64,000 bases of DNA. It comes from Phallusia mammillata. Its lineage: Eukaryota. Where the stretch lies: contig OZ281500.1 in the NCBI GenBank assembly GCA_965637545.1, forward strand, positions 7,750,001 to 7,814,000. Reading direction: 5' to 3'. A program made the position numbers. Positions 18,001 through 48,000 of this stretch are shown piece after piece (position 1 is the stretch's first letter; each line of letters starts with the position of its first letter).

Positions 18001-21000
18001 CCAGAATAGAATAAGCATAGCACAGGGACTGCGATAAAAGGTTTTGAAAAACCTGTATGTTTGTAGTGCGGCCCAGAGTTGTAAGTTGGGCCGGTTACGG
18101 GTTGAGTCCGGGCTTGAGTTTCAATAAAGCGGGTAGGCTATGGTTCGGGCCTGACTTTACACTTCATTTTGCCGCATTTTTACCGACACTAAATCGGATC
18201 GGACGATCAAACCAAACATTAATAACATGTTTTTACGCCCCGGTTTTATTGTAGGGATTGCAGTTATAAGAGCTATATAAGTTTATAAATGCAGCCTATA
18301 CTTTGTAAGCCATTCTCTTTTATAATGATCTGAATTAAGTGCGTATTGCAAATGATTTAATTTCCTAATTTAATCGACTATTTCCAACAGTATTTGTCTA
18401 CATTGAGGTTTTTTTTAGCACAAAGATGTCCAGATAGATTATGGACTTTGCAGTTTAGTTGGGTTTGCTACATACATTTTTGGTGGGGGGACACAGGTCT
18501 TACGGGGAGGGCACGAGACCCGAAAGTTACTTTTAGGGGGCCACGGTGCATGAAAGGTTGAGAACCACTGGTCTACACTTAAATCAACAACCGAATGTTA
18601 GAGCGACTGCAGTGGTGCATCGGCGTCAATACCGTACAAATCTCTATCCCCACCACGCGGTGAAACAAATAAGACAGGAATATTCCTGACAGATGTTTAG
18701 AATAATTACATATTAGTGCCACTATGGTATCTAAGACTTTGGTGCTTAATTAACAATTAGTACTTGATTATACTACGTACCGTATACTTCTTTAGCTTTA
18801 ACAGCCAAATCTACTTTAATCTCCCCCTTCAAACAGGGGTTGTCAAGTCGAGCCCCGTTTTGTTTTTTAACAAACGGGCTTGATTCGTATCATTCTGTGT
18901 TAGTATTTTAGCTAGTTGCTGTGAATGACCTAATGCCCAACAGCCCACAAACGTCTTGTTTGAGCCATGGTCTAATATTGTCCATCGTGCATGCCTTTTT
19001 TTCTCATTGGCAGGGTTGCCATACCGTCTTTATTTCTAAGATGTGGTCAAATTTTAAAGGGCAATGTCTTATTTGTGACATCATAATGGAATATATGAAA
19101 AAGATGGCATATGATATGTCATGGACCGGGCCTAAACGACTTTCGGGCCTAAACACGGGCTACCAAAAATGAGTCGGGTTCGGGTCGGGCTTCCGGCTTG
19201 AATTTCGGCCCCGCCTGCAACTCTGCTTCAAAAAACACGATCGTGCACCACATCGCAAAGTATTGCACGGAAAAATAGTTACACAATCATAACGTATAAC
19301 GCAGAAAAAAACAGACGCCGAGGAATGAAAAGTTGTTCAGGCAAATTAAAAGCCATAAGTGCACTTTAATGACCCAACAAAAAGAGGCACACTTTCGTGT
19401 TTTGGTGACAATTTAAATAAGTATTGGCGCACTTAGGCAACAAAACTAAAAACAATGCACAATAAACAATAGCGATGTACCCAAAGTATAATACTACAGT
19501 ATTATGCTATATAGCTGGCAAAAACTTGAAAAAAGAACTTATTAGAGATTAAAGTCCCACTGTACAAAACGTGAATATTTTAGCCCAGGCCCAAGCTAGA
19601 TTAACTAAATCTTAATGATCGGAATTTTCCAATGTCCACACCCAAATCCTGTTGAGCTGCATTCCGCGCACACCCAAAGCCGATCAACGTTCTTGTGATC
19701 TATTGATATTGAACAAAAATAAATATATCCTCTTTATGCCTACGCACAAAGCAACTTTGGCCTGTATACCGAAGCCCTATACACTCATTTCAATCAAAAA
19801 CGATTTTTTTCACACAGAATCAAGTTGTGTTGATGCAGAGCGCGCAGAGACCGGCCCCGGTTTGGCCATCAGGTGTTAACGCCTGATTGATACTGATGAC
19901 CATAGGACGTGGTTCAAAACTGGAAGTGTCAACAGATTTCTCCAATGCTGCGTTTTTTAAATGTACGTAATTGGCAGCGATTGTTATTCTAACGTTATCG
20001 TGGCCTTGAAAGAAATTCATCTCATCGCTTCCGTTCCAGTTTCTGTGGAGAAATAAACGAAATTTTTAGTGCCGCTTTAGAATCATCATTAGGGTCCTTT
20101 ATGGTTTTCATACCAAATACCTGATGTTGTTCAACTGGGAATGTCTTGAACTAGCACTGGGGGTAAATTTTTATGAGGATAATTATTTATGTGTGCGGGA
20201 TTATTGTGTTGAAACATTGGAGGTAAATTTTAATTTCAAAGTCTCCGGGGGGGCTGAACGAGAGAAAGAGTGTCGAGAATGTCTGCCTAAAAATGTGGAC
20301 AGCCGTATCAGTAACGGAGATGATATCGCCTAAACCACAAGACCAGTTCTGGGAAAGGTCGGGTGCATTGACAGATAAGAGAACAACATCACATTCAGCT
20401 ATATGCAAATTTCTGATGATTTGTGCGTATGCAGTACTACATATTTTTGGACCAATTCACCTAAGTGCTTTGAATTAACTTACCCGCTAAACGAAAGAGT
20501 GTTATTGGAACCCGACAAGCCATCCCAACTCCCATTGGTTTCAGGAGTTTGATAACCGATGTCCAAATGATAACCAGTGGGTTTCTCTCCGTACCACAAA
20601 TTAATTGTTACCTTTAAATAAAACCGATTTTTTTGGTTTATGAAATGTAAAGAACTGTTTTTAGGGGTGGCATGACTTACGACAGAAAATGAAGACAAGT
20701 CAAGAACGATTTTTGCTTGTCGAGCGCAAGATAGTGTTTCGTCACGCGGTGGCGCTAACTCGATGCGAACGCTCGAGTTTTCGCTGATTTCCTCAATTGT
20801 CTCGCTTCGCAAGTCCAGAGAATGTTGGCAAGGCATTTCATAACAGATACCCTTATGACCTTCAAAACATTTCAGTTCGTTTTAAAATTACGGCTTTGTA
20901 AAGTAATGAGTTATATGATAGACTGAAAAAGTCTGAAGTCGTCCACCGTTTTATTTAGACATATATATTTCACATAAGTAATAGGTATTGTTAGTACTTG

Positions 21001-45000: not shown

Positions 45001-48000
45001 TAATTATCAATTGAAATGAGTATTGGCTTAAAGTAACACACCTTTCCTCTGGCAATTTCAGACGAATAGCTGACGTCATCATCTGAAGCACCGTTTGTAA
45101 GAAGTATTAAAATTTGTTTTGCTCCTTTTCTTGACTTAGCGAAGTCTTGAAGCACAGTTTTGTTAATTGCAGCACCAATAAAAGTCGTGTAGCCCTGCAA
45201 CGGGAAACGCAACGTCACCATTTGATGATCAATCACCGAATTGCGCAATTTGAAGTCGCTCAAGTAACGAAACAAACAACACCACTTGCCATAATTTTCA
45301 TGTGATCTACAGCATAATCGAAGCACTGGTAATCAAGACAGGCACCGAGATGTAAGACGGTTTGGAGCATTTTCTGTCGATTGAACGGAAGGTTTTTGTA
45401 GTGGTGAGAAAATTGCACTACTCCCATCTGAACGTTTCCTATAAACACAATGCTCTTTGTTAAAATACTACAGACTTTTTTATTTACTTTTGCATGTCTA
45501 ATGAAGATAACGAGTTTATAAAAAGCGTTTTTTTAACTGTTTATTAAAAGTTGTAAAAAATAATTTGGGTAACAGCAAATTTTGTACAAGTTTGTTTATT
45601 TAAGCAGCTTTACCTTTTGATGAGTTCAAACCCCTAGCCACCTGCTTGACCCATGATTTAATTGAAAGAAAACTGTTAAGTCCACTACGTTCCACCGATC
45701 CAGAACCGTCAATGAGAAATATTAGGTCGACCGGGATAGATGAAACTGCAGAAAAATATAGAAATCAATTTAAATGCACAATCGGACTATTTGTTTCTCT
45801 GATTAGTAACAGTAACACATACGAAACGCCAGCATCGCCACAAACACATGTTAGGTATACACTGGGTTGTCATCGACTGAAATAAGGACAATCGAAAAAT
45901 TAAATTTCATACGAAGCGAAACAAACGTTTTTGAACAAATCTTTGCACGAGCCATGACATGTCATATGCCAACTTTTTACCAGAAACAATCTGTTACAGC
46001 AACTCCTTTGTTCATTGAAAATACTGCGTGCATCTCACGGCAGCTCAGGTCTAGGTTACTTTTACTTCAAAATAAGGACAAACTTAGAAATAAGAGCGGT
46101 ATGGCAACCCTGGATATACAACTCCAAATTAAAACAATAGCTTACTGTTCTGTATCGGCCGCCATGGTGGGTTAGCAAGACCCCTTGACCACCAATCTAC
46201 TGTCTTGGATTCAAGTATTCTGACAGGGGCAGCTTCATTACCACAGACAGCACAAATAGTAAGAACACAGAGGCGTAGTAAATACCAGCTCATTGACAGT
46301 CCCCTTGACTTATATGGCCTTGAGCTGCGTCACGAATCAATTAAAATCGGATCTCATCGGGTCAGTTTAGTGAAATCTTGTACACAATACCTTGTATGCT
46401 ACTAAGGCAGCTGAAAACATAATATATTAATTATTTTTGCTTCACAACATAAACTTGTATTTCTTTACTTTGAGTTTACAAAGTAACGCCATTCAACGAA
46501 GTAAACCCTTGCGCCTTCCTCTTGAGATCACGTTTTAAAAATCCGCCCTATGAGGCAAACTTCCGAGACAGTTATGATTTTTTGAACCCCAAACAACAAC
46601 GTCAAAATATTCTGATTTACTGACAAACGCCAACAGTACTCTGAAACCATACCTATCAATCTCAAAATAACAGTTCTAAAAATAGCATCAGCAGCAACCC
46701 TACTTCCCTATATTAACCTTATATTATTCCGGTTTGGACCGTTTTTGGTCAAAAAATATTGTGAAATCGGTAGACAGGACATTCCACTTCCTGCTGTATG
46801 GCCAGACCTATATCTCTTTTCGAATGACGTTCTCACAATGATGTAGCCTATTTTTACGTGGTCATTAGGGATGCGCACATAAGGCGTCGGTAAATGCTTA
46901 GTACAATTTATGACCAACTTAATGTGGGCTCTGCACATCACGAATCTGACTGCTTGCTTGTAGTAGCAACAGAATCACCACTCTGTCTAAATCTAGTCTT
47001 TTTGAAACTATACTGGTCAACAACTAGCAGTTTTAAAGACACTTCTATCCTTGAAACTACTGCTTTTACGCTTGATTTTTTTCCCAGTCTACAACTTGAT
47101 GCGCGTTGTGATATGTCGTCACAACGGTGCTTTACTTGCCAAGTCTTGCCTGTCAGACGTAGTACATTCCAATCAATTTAGAGTTTCGAAACGAACTAAC
47201 GTAAAAGCGTGGAGAGATTACGCGCTTCTGCTGCTGGGCAGACGTTATCACGCGGGTAAAAATACACTGAATCGTGCTTGAGTATCGCAGACGGACTTGT
47301 ACACCGTTAAAAAAGGCCAAAAAATATATTAGATTTGGGATTTTGAAACAGATTATGTACTAACAGGAATTTTGCTTGAATATTTTTTGGGTTAATTAAA
47401 GTTGAAAGCATTCCTTTCTTTCTTGAACGCAAAACATTATAGGAATTGGTCTTGGTTGCTGCACCATAAATAAAAGTTTCAATGGCAAATCGACGTAATT
47501 GTGAAATACACCTTTGTGTCGACGTATAATGACAAAAGGAACATACACCGGTGACGCAAAAGTGCGTGAAGAGAACAGCAAGCCTTATTATCGTGCTAGG
47601 CTGGTTTGACGATTTTCCTTTGTTCGATTCGGTGGATTGTGTAAGCAAGCATTAACTTTTCGACACTAAGAGGGCGCGATAAACCTGTACAAACATCGAG
47701 AATCAATGATGTTTTTGTTACCGTGTAAAGTGCTATACTGCCGACCACAGCACTGTACATATTAAATTCTGTGTTTCCGTGCTCAGGAGACCACCACGTT
47801 CTTGCTTTAACTTACGTGCGTTTCCAGCAGCCGCCAGACAAACAAAACACAAAACAAGCTGGAAGGAGCGCACAATAGCTTTTCTTTGCCACTTTGTCGC
47901 CTACCAACAATCTTTGGAAGCATCTTTACTGTGATAAGACGTGATTAATCGACTTTGATTCAATATTGATTCGGGATTGGTCAACAATTGACTGTAGGTT

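What the first reader, a model, noticed from the sequence alone, without database searches (positions are those of the whole stretch)
19820..46293. Tandem vWA-Sushi paralogs arranged like variable and constant cassettes
Seen: paralog A repeats only the N-terminal head (signal-vWA-Sushi-vWA-Sushi) and lies directly upstream of paralog B on the same strand. Homologous introns have the same phase, so A donors (e.g. THCQ| at 42347, phase 0) are frame-compatible with B acceptors (VTSQGDVYKC at about 31438, phase 0). Only B has the EGF stalk and tail. The heads have diverged strongly in protein sequence. Inference: either a soluble head-only partner of a long adhesive, matrix or immune protein, or two alternative heads spliced to one constant region, as in clustered protocadherins or UGT1. 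A CTCF-like motif inside A is suggestive only.
Basis: partly seen in the sequence, partly recalled or inferred. Interest (0 to 1): 0.65.

Follow-up and report, generated by a model that had tools for sequence, protein, structure and literature searches.

The report
Truncated tandem copy of matrix gene
Two neighbouring sea-squirt genes encode a long secreted matrix-type protein and an old, shortened copy of its front end; they look like two ordinary separate genes, not alternative heads spliced onto one shared body.

Summary
The window is Phallusia mammillata (ascidian) DNA. On the minus strand lie gene A (12 exons, 46293-42155, 586 aa: signal, vWA, Sushi, vWA, Sushi) and, 1514 nt downstream, gene B (32 exons, 40640-19820, 1847 aa: the same head plus one more Sushi, at least 16 EGF repeats, four Sushi-like units and a roughly 170-aa C-terminal beta-sandwich). 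The first ten introns share position and phase, and the heads are 45.5% identical.

The cassette reading is not supported.
- A has its own terminal exon, homologous to B exon 13. The homologous donor GT is lost there, and the frame runs three codons to a stop.
- Public records already list A and B as separate proteins. The exon searches returned no chimera.
- Shared intron phase is what any pair of paralogs shows, so it carries no weight.

The duplication is old: synonymous sites are saturated (pS 0.84) and no intron similarity remains. A is intact, has been constrained (pN 0.32), and evolves about twice as fast as B. Two sources differ at only 2 of 580 (A) and 10 of 1825 (B) residues, so nothing points to a hypervariable recognition gene. 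The CTCF-like motif is a single hit, matched by 9 of 100 shuffles.

Verdict: an ordinary partial tandem duplicate. A is most likely a soluble head-only matrix-binding paralog. No transcript data could be examined.

The parts
42155..46293 (-). Gene A: head-only paralog, 586 aa (signal, vWA, Sushi, vWA, Sushi), 12 exons
   Evidence: Matches public P0001 at 578 of 580 full codons. Exons: 46293-46146, 45745-45614, 45438-45290 (GC donor), 45194-45042, 44787-44613, 44456-44274, 43943-43810, 43720-43640, 43574-43409, 42990-42840, 42529-42346, 42259-42155. Pfam finds VWA x2 and Sushi x2.
42155..42259 (-). A exon 12: terminal exon that completes the last Sushi, then three codons (RVG) and TGA
   Evidence: Homolog of B exon 13. 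At the position of B's donor (GTCAAA|gtaaat) A reads TGTCGAG then TGGGAT, so the GT is gone and the frame runs to TGA at 42157-42155. P0001 ends at the same residue.
42346..42529 (-). A exon 11: hybrid Sushi exon. Its 5' part resembles the start of B exon 11 and its 3' part resembles B exon 12. Donor after THCQ, phase 0
   Evidence: The alignment shows that A lacks a 63-residue stretch (Sushi-2 core plus the start of Sushi-3) present in B, P0117 and P0126. The donor's last base is 42346.
40641..42154 (-). A-B intergenic region, 1514 nt
   Evidence: No AATAAA. One ATTAAA at 41487 (668 nt after the stop). Variant hexamers TATAAA at 42028 and AGTAAA at 42021. No relic of stalk exons: the best tblastn hits have E above 4. 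A TATA-like GATATAAT lies about 85 nt upstream of B's ATG (read by eye).
19820..40640 (-). Gene B: long paralog, 1847 aa, 32 exons
   Evidence: Matches public P0002 at 1815 of 1825 full codons. Exon table. Pfam finds VWA x2, Sushi and EGF in 16 stretches.
31343..40640 (-). B head, exons 1-13 (signal, vWA, Sushi, vWA, Sushi, Sushi)
   Evidence: Exons: 40640-40454, 39987-39856, 39783-39635, 39570-39418, 39265-39091, 37383-37198, 36732-36599, 36313-36233, 35411-35252, 34032-33879, 32964-32735, 32198-32056, 31439-31343. 45.5% identical to A.
32735..32964 (-). B exon 11: the extra Sushi that A lacks
   Evidence: P0117 and P0126 also have it, so its absence in A is the derived state.
23165..30953 (-). 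B EGF stalk, exons 14-26
   Evidence: Pfam EGF, hEGF, EGF_CA and EGF_TEN over residues ~660-1398. Exon coordinates.
20859..23090 (-). B tail: four Sushi-like units of six Cys each (exons 27-29 and the start of exon 30)
   Evidence: Pfam Sushi. Cys spacing over residues 1401-1677.
19820..20859 (-). B C-terminal ~170-aa domain (exons 30-32), probably a ConA-like beta-sandwich, ending in the stop codon
   Evidence: No Pfam match. Conserved in P0117 and P0126. AlphaFold model is all-beta, mean pLDDT 69.8, pTM 0.73. Foldseek PDB hits are lectin/jelly-roll folds at TM 0.30-0.45. ESM Atlas gives leads only, at 0.83.
42788..42802 (-). CTCF-like motif in A intron 10
   Evidence: One hit with 1 mismatch to a recalled consensus. 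9 of 100 shuffles gave at least one hit. Carries no weight.

Best explanation
A and B are two separate, tandemly arranged genes of the ascidian Phallusia mammillata that arose by an old partial tandem duplication.

B is the full-length form. It is a secreted multidomain matrix or adhesion-type protein with no membrane anchor: signal, vWA, Sushi, vWA, Sushi, Sushi, at least 16 EGF repeats, four Sushi-like units, and a lectin-like beta-sandwich.

A kept only the head. It lost one Sushi by an internal deletion between two neighbouring Sushi repeats. It became a terminal-exon gene when the donor after the last head exon was lost, so the frame now reads three more codons into a stop.

A is transcribed from its own start, ends before B, and yields a 586-aa soluble protein with two MIDAS-type vWA domains. 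Its vWA domains resemble the collagen- and matrix-binding class. By inference, A binds the same kind of extracellular ligand as B's head without tethering it to the EGF stalk, acting as a free modulator or competitor, or as a sub- or neo-functionalised matrix component.

Shown here: gene structures, homology, the stop, the donor loss, the age of the duplication, constraint, and faster evolution of A. Inferred: secretion, ligand class, and independent transcription and polyadenylation.
For: - Separate public proteins match each gene: P0001 ends at A's stop and P0002 starts at B's ATG. P0001's model uses a GC-AG intron, which hints at transcript support; that is my inference.
- A exon 12 is homologous to B exon 13, and the donor GT is absent at the homologous place.
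- Neither exon search returned a chimeric protein.
- No relic of stalk exons lies after A.
- The duplication is old: pS 0.84 (saturated) and pN 0.32 over 272 codons of the 6 equal-length exon pairs. Only one 35-nt blastn match links the two loci.
- A is intact: 12 exons with 10 GT-AG and 1 GC-AG introns, Sushi cysteines kept, and a complete DxSxS...T...D pattern in vWA2 (the motif name is recalled).
- A, B, P0117 and P0126 form a clade with 96/99 support. A's end branch is 0.93 against 0.42-0.49 for the others. A is the odd one out in 39 alignment columns, against 19-22 for each of the others.
- The long forms P0117 (2233 aa) and P0126 (1650 aa) share B's architecture and both Sushi repeats, so A's form is the derived one.
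- The closest solved vWA domains are collagen VI alpha-3, mussel proximal thread matrix protein 1, MIC2, VWF A domains and the integrin alpha-2 I domain.
- Both N-termini are hydrophobic and neither protein has a later TM-like segment.
Against: - No transcript, TSS or poly(A) data could be examined.
- No canonical AATAAA lies between A's stop and B's ATG; only one ATTAAA 668 nt downstream and variant hexamers. Termination of A is therefore inferred.
- No head-only ortholog of A turned up. The near-length search gave Ciona VWA+Sushi proteins of a different domain order. The representative search listed only long forms as collinear relatives.
- The order of branching among A, B, P0117 and P0126 is unresolved. 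None of the four AU tests rejected its grouping (p 0.14-0.46), and site patterns are 13/10/9. The timing of the duplication is therefore unknown.
- The ligand class rests on sequence similarity only.
- I do not know whether P0001 and P0002 rest on cDNA or on prediction.
Confidence: 0.75

Rival explanations
1. Cassette model: A and B heads are alternative 5' units, each with its own promoter, spliced to the single EGF/Sushi constant region as in clustered protocadherins or UGT1A. For example, the A exon 11 donor (42346) would join the B exon 13 acceptor (31439).
For: Same strand, tandem order, and only one stalk. The two sites are both phase 0. No canonical AATAAA follows A's stop.
Against: - A has its own exon 12, 86 nt after that donor, which completes the Sushi and ends in a stop.
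- The homologous downstream donor is lost. The nearby GT is phase 0 and would be out of frame with B exon 14, which is phase 1.
- The proposed splice would have to skip A exon 12 and 12 B exons that carry acceptors.
- Variable units of Pcdh and UGT1A are single exons without a stop of their own (recalled knowledge).
- Shared phase is expected of any paralogs.
- Public records hold A and B as separate proteins, and no chimera was returned.
Confidence: 0.04
2. A is a decaying, functionless partial duplicate (an expressed or silent pseudogene-in-waiting).
For: It is truncated and lacks one Sushi. Its branch is about twice as long as those of the long forms. No head-only ortholog was found.
Against: - Synonymous sites are saturated, yet all 12 exons are open with usable splice sites.
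- pN 0.32 is far below pS 0.84.
- Cysteines and the vWA2 metal-site residues are kept.
- Two sources differ at only 2 of 580 residues and share the same stop.
Confidence: 0.07
3. The heads are polymorphic self/non-self or gamete recognition modules, in the manner of Ciona vCRL1 or vitelline-coat EGF proteins.
For: Sushi- and EGF-rich proteins have been proposed in ascidian recognition (review PMC9265791, passages seen). The A and B heads diverged strongly.
Against: - Between the database proteins and the window, 2 of 580 (A) and 10 of 1825 (B; 6 of 653 in the head) residues differ. This is only two sources, and synonymous variation could not be seen.
- B has no ZP domain or TM segment, unlike CiVC57 as described in that review.
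- A-B divergence is paralog divergence, not allelic.
Confidence: 0.04
4. Separate genes that also give low-level read-through (conjoined) A-B transcripts, as many tandem gene pairs do, without a dedicated cassette mechanism.
For: Short intergenic distance of 1514 nt, same strand, no canonical AATAAA, and several phase-0 B acceptors at exons 4, 5, 8, 9 and 13.
Against: No such protein was returned. There is no direct evidence either way.
Confidence: 0.1

Closest known systems
[quoted passage not shown]
   Same: Secreted mosaic of vWA, Sushi and EGF repeats plus a beta-sandwich domain of the concanavalin-like kind. Ciona genes with this automatic name are listed in tables of PMC8495957 (passages seen).
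   Different: B has two vWA domains interleaved with Sushi at the N-terminus and far fewer Sushi repeats. Pfam finds no pentraxin or HYR. The C-terminal fold match is weak (TM 0.30-0.45). Orthology was not tested.
Matrilins (matrilin-4 is the best named vertebrate hit) and VWA2/AMACO
   Same: Two matrix-type vWA domains with EGF repeats. Matrilin-4 proteins gave E of about 1e-49. Matrilin and VWA2 clusters are the nearest by ESM Atlas structure.
   Different: No matrilin coiled-coil domain. Sushi repeats sit between and after the vWA domains. In the tree, the two matrilin-4 proteins sit outside the A/B clade.
Mussel proximal thread matrix protein 1 (PTMP1)
   Same: Small secreted protein built of two vWA domains. 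Second-best solved-structure hit for A (E 8.9e-20). A useful analogy for a head-only, two-vWA matrix binder.
   Different: No Sushi repeats. From an unrelated lineage. The similarity is at the domain level only.
Clustered protocadherin / UGT1A variable-constant loci
   Same: Tandem, same-strand units upstream of a single set of downstream exons.
   Different: A is multi-exon, has its own stop-bearing terminal exon, and has lost the homologous donor. No chimeric product is known.
Ciona VWA+Sushi proteins named 'P-selectin-like' and 'E-selectin-like' (P0052, P0054). Ci-sushi is called P-selectin-like, KH.C11.274, in PMC8495957
   Same: Ascidian secreted proteins of about 590-660 aa with only Sushi and vWA domains.
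   Different: Different order: several Sushi first, then one C-terminal vWA. Only ~30% identity over ~40% of A. Whether P0052 is Ci-sushi was not tested.

Membership tests
Variable/constant cassette locus (Pcdh, UGT1A type) | Each variable unit ends in a splice donor and has no stop or terminal exon of its own | tested here: not met
   A exon 12 ends in TGA at 42157-42155, and the homologous donor GT is absent.
Variable/constant cassette locus (Pcdh, UGT1A type) | Each variable unit is a single exon without internal acceptors that would compete | tested here: not met
   A has 12 exons. B's head has 13 exons, 12 of them with acceptors.
Variable/constant cassette locus (Pcdh, UGT1A type) | Mature transcripts join each variable unit to the shared constant exons | not testable with these tools
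   No transcript data were available. The exon searches returned only P0001 and P0002, with no chimera.
SVEP1 / polydom | vWA, Sushi and EGF domains in one secreted chain | tested here: met
   Pfam on P0002.
SVEP1 / polydom | Pentraxin domain (and HYR) | tested here: not met
   No Pfam pentraxin or HYR at E up to 0.01. The C-terminal model resembles lectin-type jelly rolls only weakly.
Matrilin | C-terminal matrilin coiled-coil oligomerisation domain | tested here: not met
   PF10393 is absent from P0001 and P0002, although it is present in the matrilin-4 hits.
Complement factor B / C2 | Sushi repeats, one vWA and a C-terminal serine protease | tested here: not met
   The ESM Atlas first hit is a cluster named 'Complement C2 (Fragment)' at 0.94, but A and B have no trypsin domain.
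Ascidian vitelline-coat EGF/ZP proteins (CiVC57 type) | ZP domain and C-terminal transmembrane segment | tested here: not met
   No ZP in Pfam and no hydrophobic segment beyond the signal. The family description comes from passages of PMC9265791.
vWA domain with metal-ion-dependent adhesion site | DxSxS ... T ... D residues (motif recalled) | tested here: met
   vWA2 of A and of B keep all of them. vWA1 of both A and B has N in place of the last D, whereas P0117 and P0126 have D (alignment).

The most novel reading that the evidence does not exclude
A is a fast-evolving, secreted 'free head' that was retained for a very long time because it tunes or antagonises the ligand binding of its long neighbour B (a natural soluble competitor for a matrix or adhesion receptor-like protein in the tunic, papillae or blood). 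Alternatively, read-through A-B splicing really does yield a second head on the same stalk in some tissue.
Probability: 0.12. Interest if true: 0.5.

Novelty: new member of a known kind. Interest (0 to 1): 0.2.

Why it matters
The finding matters little beyond annotation. It documents an intact, long-lived, truncated paralog next to a large SVEP1-like ascidian matrix gene, and shows how a terminal exon can arise: donor loss followed by read-through into a nearby stop. If A proved to modulate B, the pair would be a tidy model of a secreted decoy born by partial duplication. The cassette idea would have been the interesting part, and the sequence argues against it.

Tried and rejected
- A generic splice-site scorer alone gave ambiguous junctions. 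I replaced it with protein-guided junctions.
- dS between A and B cannot be estimated because pS is 0.84, above the Jukes-Cantor limit. No dN/dS ratio is given.
- Tree and AU tests could not order A, B, P0117 and P0126, and neither could site patterns at 13/10/9. The shared D-to-N change in vWA1 of A and B is one character only.
Their species stay unknown.
- The Ciona VWA+Sushi proteins P0052 and P0054 looked like head-only orthologs by name and length, but they have another domain order.
- The bacterial-type promoter/terminator scan of the intergenic region does not apply to a eukaryote and I ignored it.
- ESM Atlas leads for B's C-terminus (FAMeT-type and galectin clusters, 0.83) are below the level the tool calls more than a lead.
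- The WSRGLAxPPWRP stretch is the only DNA-level match between the loci. It shows no excess codon identity (6 of 11 identical-residue codons), so there is no sign of gene conversion.
- No eukaryotic genome collection was on hand. Copy number in other tunicates and expression tables stayed unchecked.

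
Full report
**What the window is.** The window has no N. A single-exon query from the upstream unit (window 45042-45194, minus strand) returned one protein, 100% identical: P0001, 586 aa, a UniRef/nr record of Phallusia mammillata automatically named 'Neurogenic locus notch homolog protein 1-like'. A single-exon query from the downstream unit (22636-23169, minus strand) returned one protein, P0002, 1847 aa, with the same species and name. 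The window is therefore ascidian DNA and nothing in it was taken for human. All full-length analyses used the public records P0001 and P0002 that the exon searches returned.

**Gene structures.** I mapped the two proteins back with tblastn and refined each junction to GT/GC...AG.
- Gene A has 12 exons on the minus strand, from ATG at 46293 to TGA at 42157-42155.
- Gene B has 32 exons, from ATG at 40640 to TGA at 19822-19820.
- Pfam on single exons and on the public proteins gives A two VWA and two Sushi domains.
- B has two VWA domains, Sushi repeats, and EGF in 16 stretches, with no family for its last ~175 residues.
- Both N-termini are hydrophobic, and neither protein has a later TM-like segment. 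Secretion is my inference from this.
- Intron phases are 1,1,0,0,1,1,0,0,1,2,0 in A and 1,1,0,0,1,1,0,0,1,2,1,0,1... in B.
- Six exon pairs have identical lengths, and the other homologous pairs differ by multiples of three.
- The heads are 45.5% identical over 536 columns, E 5e-156.

- B's head carries one more Sushi (exon 11, 32964-32735). The two other long relatives found, P0117 and P0126, carry it as well. A exon 11 begins like B exon 11 and ends like B exon 12, so A lost a 63-residue stretch by a deletion between two neighbouring Sushi repeats.
- A has its own exon 12 (42259-42155), only 86 nt after the THCQ donor. It is the homolog of the very B exon proposed as the cassette acceptor and completes A's last Sushi.
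- B exon 13 ends GTCAAA|gtaaat in phase 1. A reads TGTCGAG followed by TGGGAT at that place, so the donor GT is gone and the frame runs Arg-Val-Gly into TGA.
- A GT one base earlier would be phase 0 and out of frame with B's first EGF exon, which is phase 1.
- P0001 ends at the same residue.
- No relic of EGF or tail exons lies between A and B, and the window holds no third paralog.

**Cassette model.** Phase compatibility is what any pair of paralogs with conserved introns shows, so it carries no evidential weight. The proposed splice would have to skip A's own exon 12 and twelve B exons that have acceptors. B has its own start codon and signal-peptide exon, with a TATA-like element about 85 nt upstream (read by eye). 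The exon searches covered proteins of 91-2000 aa and 313-2000 aa and returned one protein each, never an A-head/B-stalk chimera.

Against my reading:
- The 1514-nt spacer has no canonical AATAAA. It has only ATTAAA 668 nt after the stop, and the variants TATAAA and AGTAAA at 127-134 nt.
- I could see no transcript data.
- I do not know whether the public models rest on cDNA. The GC-AG intron 3 in A's model hints at that, but this is an inference.

The CTCF-like motif is one 1-mismatch hit, at 42788-42802 in A intron 10, to a consensus I recalled. At least one hit occurred in 9 of 100 shuffles.

**Age and constraint.** I compared the six equal-length exon pairs (272 codons) out of the ten head exon pairs (exons 1-10) that correspond one to one. 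The remaining pairs contain indels and were left out.
- pS is 0.84, which is saturated, so dS is undefined. pN is 0.32.
- The two loci share a single 35-nt blastn match, so their introns are unalignable.
- That match encodes a conserved peptide, WSRGLAxPPWRP, and shows no excess codon identity.
- A is nevertheless intact in all 12 exons. It keeps the Sushi cysteines and the metal-site residues of vWA2.

This points to long-term purifying selection and argues against a decaying relic.

**Relatives.**
- HMMER against 1.84 billion representatives gave 6196 proteins at E up to 0.001. Most are multi-vWA proteins.
- Among the 150 listed, only three are collinear with the whole head: B, P0117 (2233 aa) and P0126 (1650 aa, N-terminally short). 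Both unnamed proteins have B's architecture and B's C-terminal domain.
- In a 14-row tree the four form a clade (96/99), with the inner order unresolved. A's end branch is 0.93 against 0.42, 0.49 and 0.44 for the others.
- None of the four AU tests rejected its grouping (p 0.26, 0.29, 0.46, 0.14).
- Over 472 gap-free columns, the informative patterns are 13 (A+B), 10 and 9. A stands alone in 39 columns, against 20, 22 and 19 for the others.

A therefore evolves about twice as fast as the others, and the timing of the duplication relative to the other two lineages is open. A and B share an Asn in place of the last metal-site Asp of vWA1, where the other two have Asp. That is one character only.

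No head-only ortholog was found. Ciona 'P-selectin-like' and 'E-selectin-like' proteins (P0052, P0054) have several Sushi repeats followed by one C-terminal vWA. PMC8495957 (passages seen) calls Ci-sushi (KH.C11.274) 'P-selectin-like' and lists Ciona genes named after SVEP1. I could not link these to the proteins found here.

**Polymorphism.** Between the database proteins and the window, 2 of 580 full codons differ in A. In B, 10 of 1825 differ: 6 of 653 in the head and 4 of 1172 elsewhere. This covers two sources only and amino acids only, but it gives no hint of a hypervariable recognition locus. The review PMC9265791 (passages seen) describes ascidian recognition candidates with ZP and TM parts (CiVC57) or with Sushi only (vCRL1). 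B has neither a ZP domain nor a TM segment.

**What the proteins resemble.**
- By sequence, the nearest solved vWA domains are collagen VI alpha-3, mussel proximal thread matrix protein 1 (a two-vWA byssal matrix protein), MIC2, VWF A domains and the integrin alpha-2 I domain.
- The best named vertebrate hits are matrilin-4. The nearest ESM Atlas clusters are complement C2 fragment, P-selectin-like, VWA2 and matrilins.
- A and B lack the matrilin coiled coil, any protease domain, and Pfam pentraxin or HYR.
- B's C-terminal domain was modelled from a three-sequence alignment. The model is all-beta, with mean pLDDT 69.8 and pTM 0.73.
- That model matches lectin-type jelly rolls only weakly, at TM 0.30-0.45. 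Atlas leads at 0.83 are leads only.
- B is best described as an SVEP1-like mosaic in the loose sense. It is not shown to be an ortholog.

**Mechanism, with confidence.** I put about 0.75 on the following account. A and B are independent genes. B is a long secreted matrix or adhesion protein. A is an old truncated paralog that supplies the two-vWA/Sushi head as a free soluble protein, which probably binds the same class of matrix ligand. The structural and evolutionary steps are shown here. Expression, termination and ligand are inferred.

Rivals:

| Rival | Confidence |
|---|---|
| Low-level read-through chimeras | 0.10 |
| Functionless relic | 0.07 |
| Dedicated cassette | 0.04 |
| Polymorphic recognition | 0.04 |

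**Unchecked.**
- Transcripts, TSS and poly(A) sites. ANISEED holds such tracks according to PMC5753386 (passages seen).
- Paper supplements (closed).
- The species of P0117 and P0126.

Noticed in passing
window 30353-30481 and 32014-32142: A 129-nt direct repeat, 100% identical. The copy in B intron 14 reproduces the last 87 nt of B exon 12 plus 42 nt of the following intron. It has sharp edges, an A-run before it and about 15 A after it. It could be a very recent small retro- or template-switch copy, or an assembly artefact. It would be out of frame as an exon there.
   Followed up: partly
window 28390-28651 (B intron 17): Nested inverted repeats: arms of 51 nt at 96% and 43 nt at 95% complementarity. 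This looks like a small hairpin or MITE-like element inside an intron.
   Followed up: no
window 46194-46159 (A exon 1) and 40502-40467 (B exon 1): A conserved peptide, WSRGLA(N/T)PPWRP, lies between the signal peptide and the first vWA. It underlies the only blastn match between the two loci. Codon identity is not in excess. P0117 has a weaker version. Its function is unknown.
   Followed up: partly
window 45290/45289 (A intron 3 donor): A GC-AG intron (ATTATG|gcaagt) in gene A, where B has GT at the homologous site.
   Followed up: no
window 45092-45084 (A) and 39468-39460 (B), within exon 4 of each: In vWA1, both A and B read T-N-G where P0117 and P0126 read T-D-G, the last metal-site residue. 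vWA1 may not bind metal in the usual way. It is a possible shared derived character of A and B. The coordinates are my own estimate from the exon tables.
   Followed up: partly
window 20680-20612 (B intron 30): A 69-nt intron that lies in frame and without a stop inside one long open frame, 20483-20881. Retention would add 23 residues to the C-terminal domain.
   Followed up: no
B residues 1401-1677 (window about 23090-20845): The four tail Sushi-like units each have six cysteines rather than four, as does the last head Sushi of A and B.
   Followed up: no
window 55319-58946 (-), 13302-13631 (-), 6658-7170 (-): Open frames that look by eye like a Kelch/BTB-BACK gene, a cyclin-box fragment and a coiled-coil protein. 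They are unrelated to the finding and were not tested with any tool.
   Followed up: no
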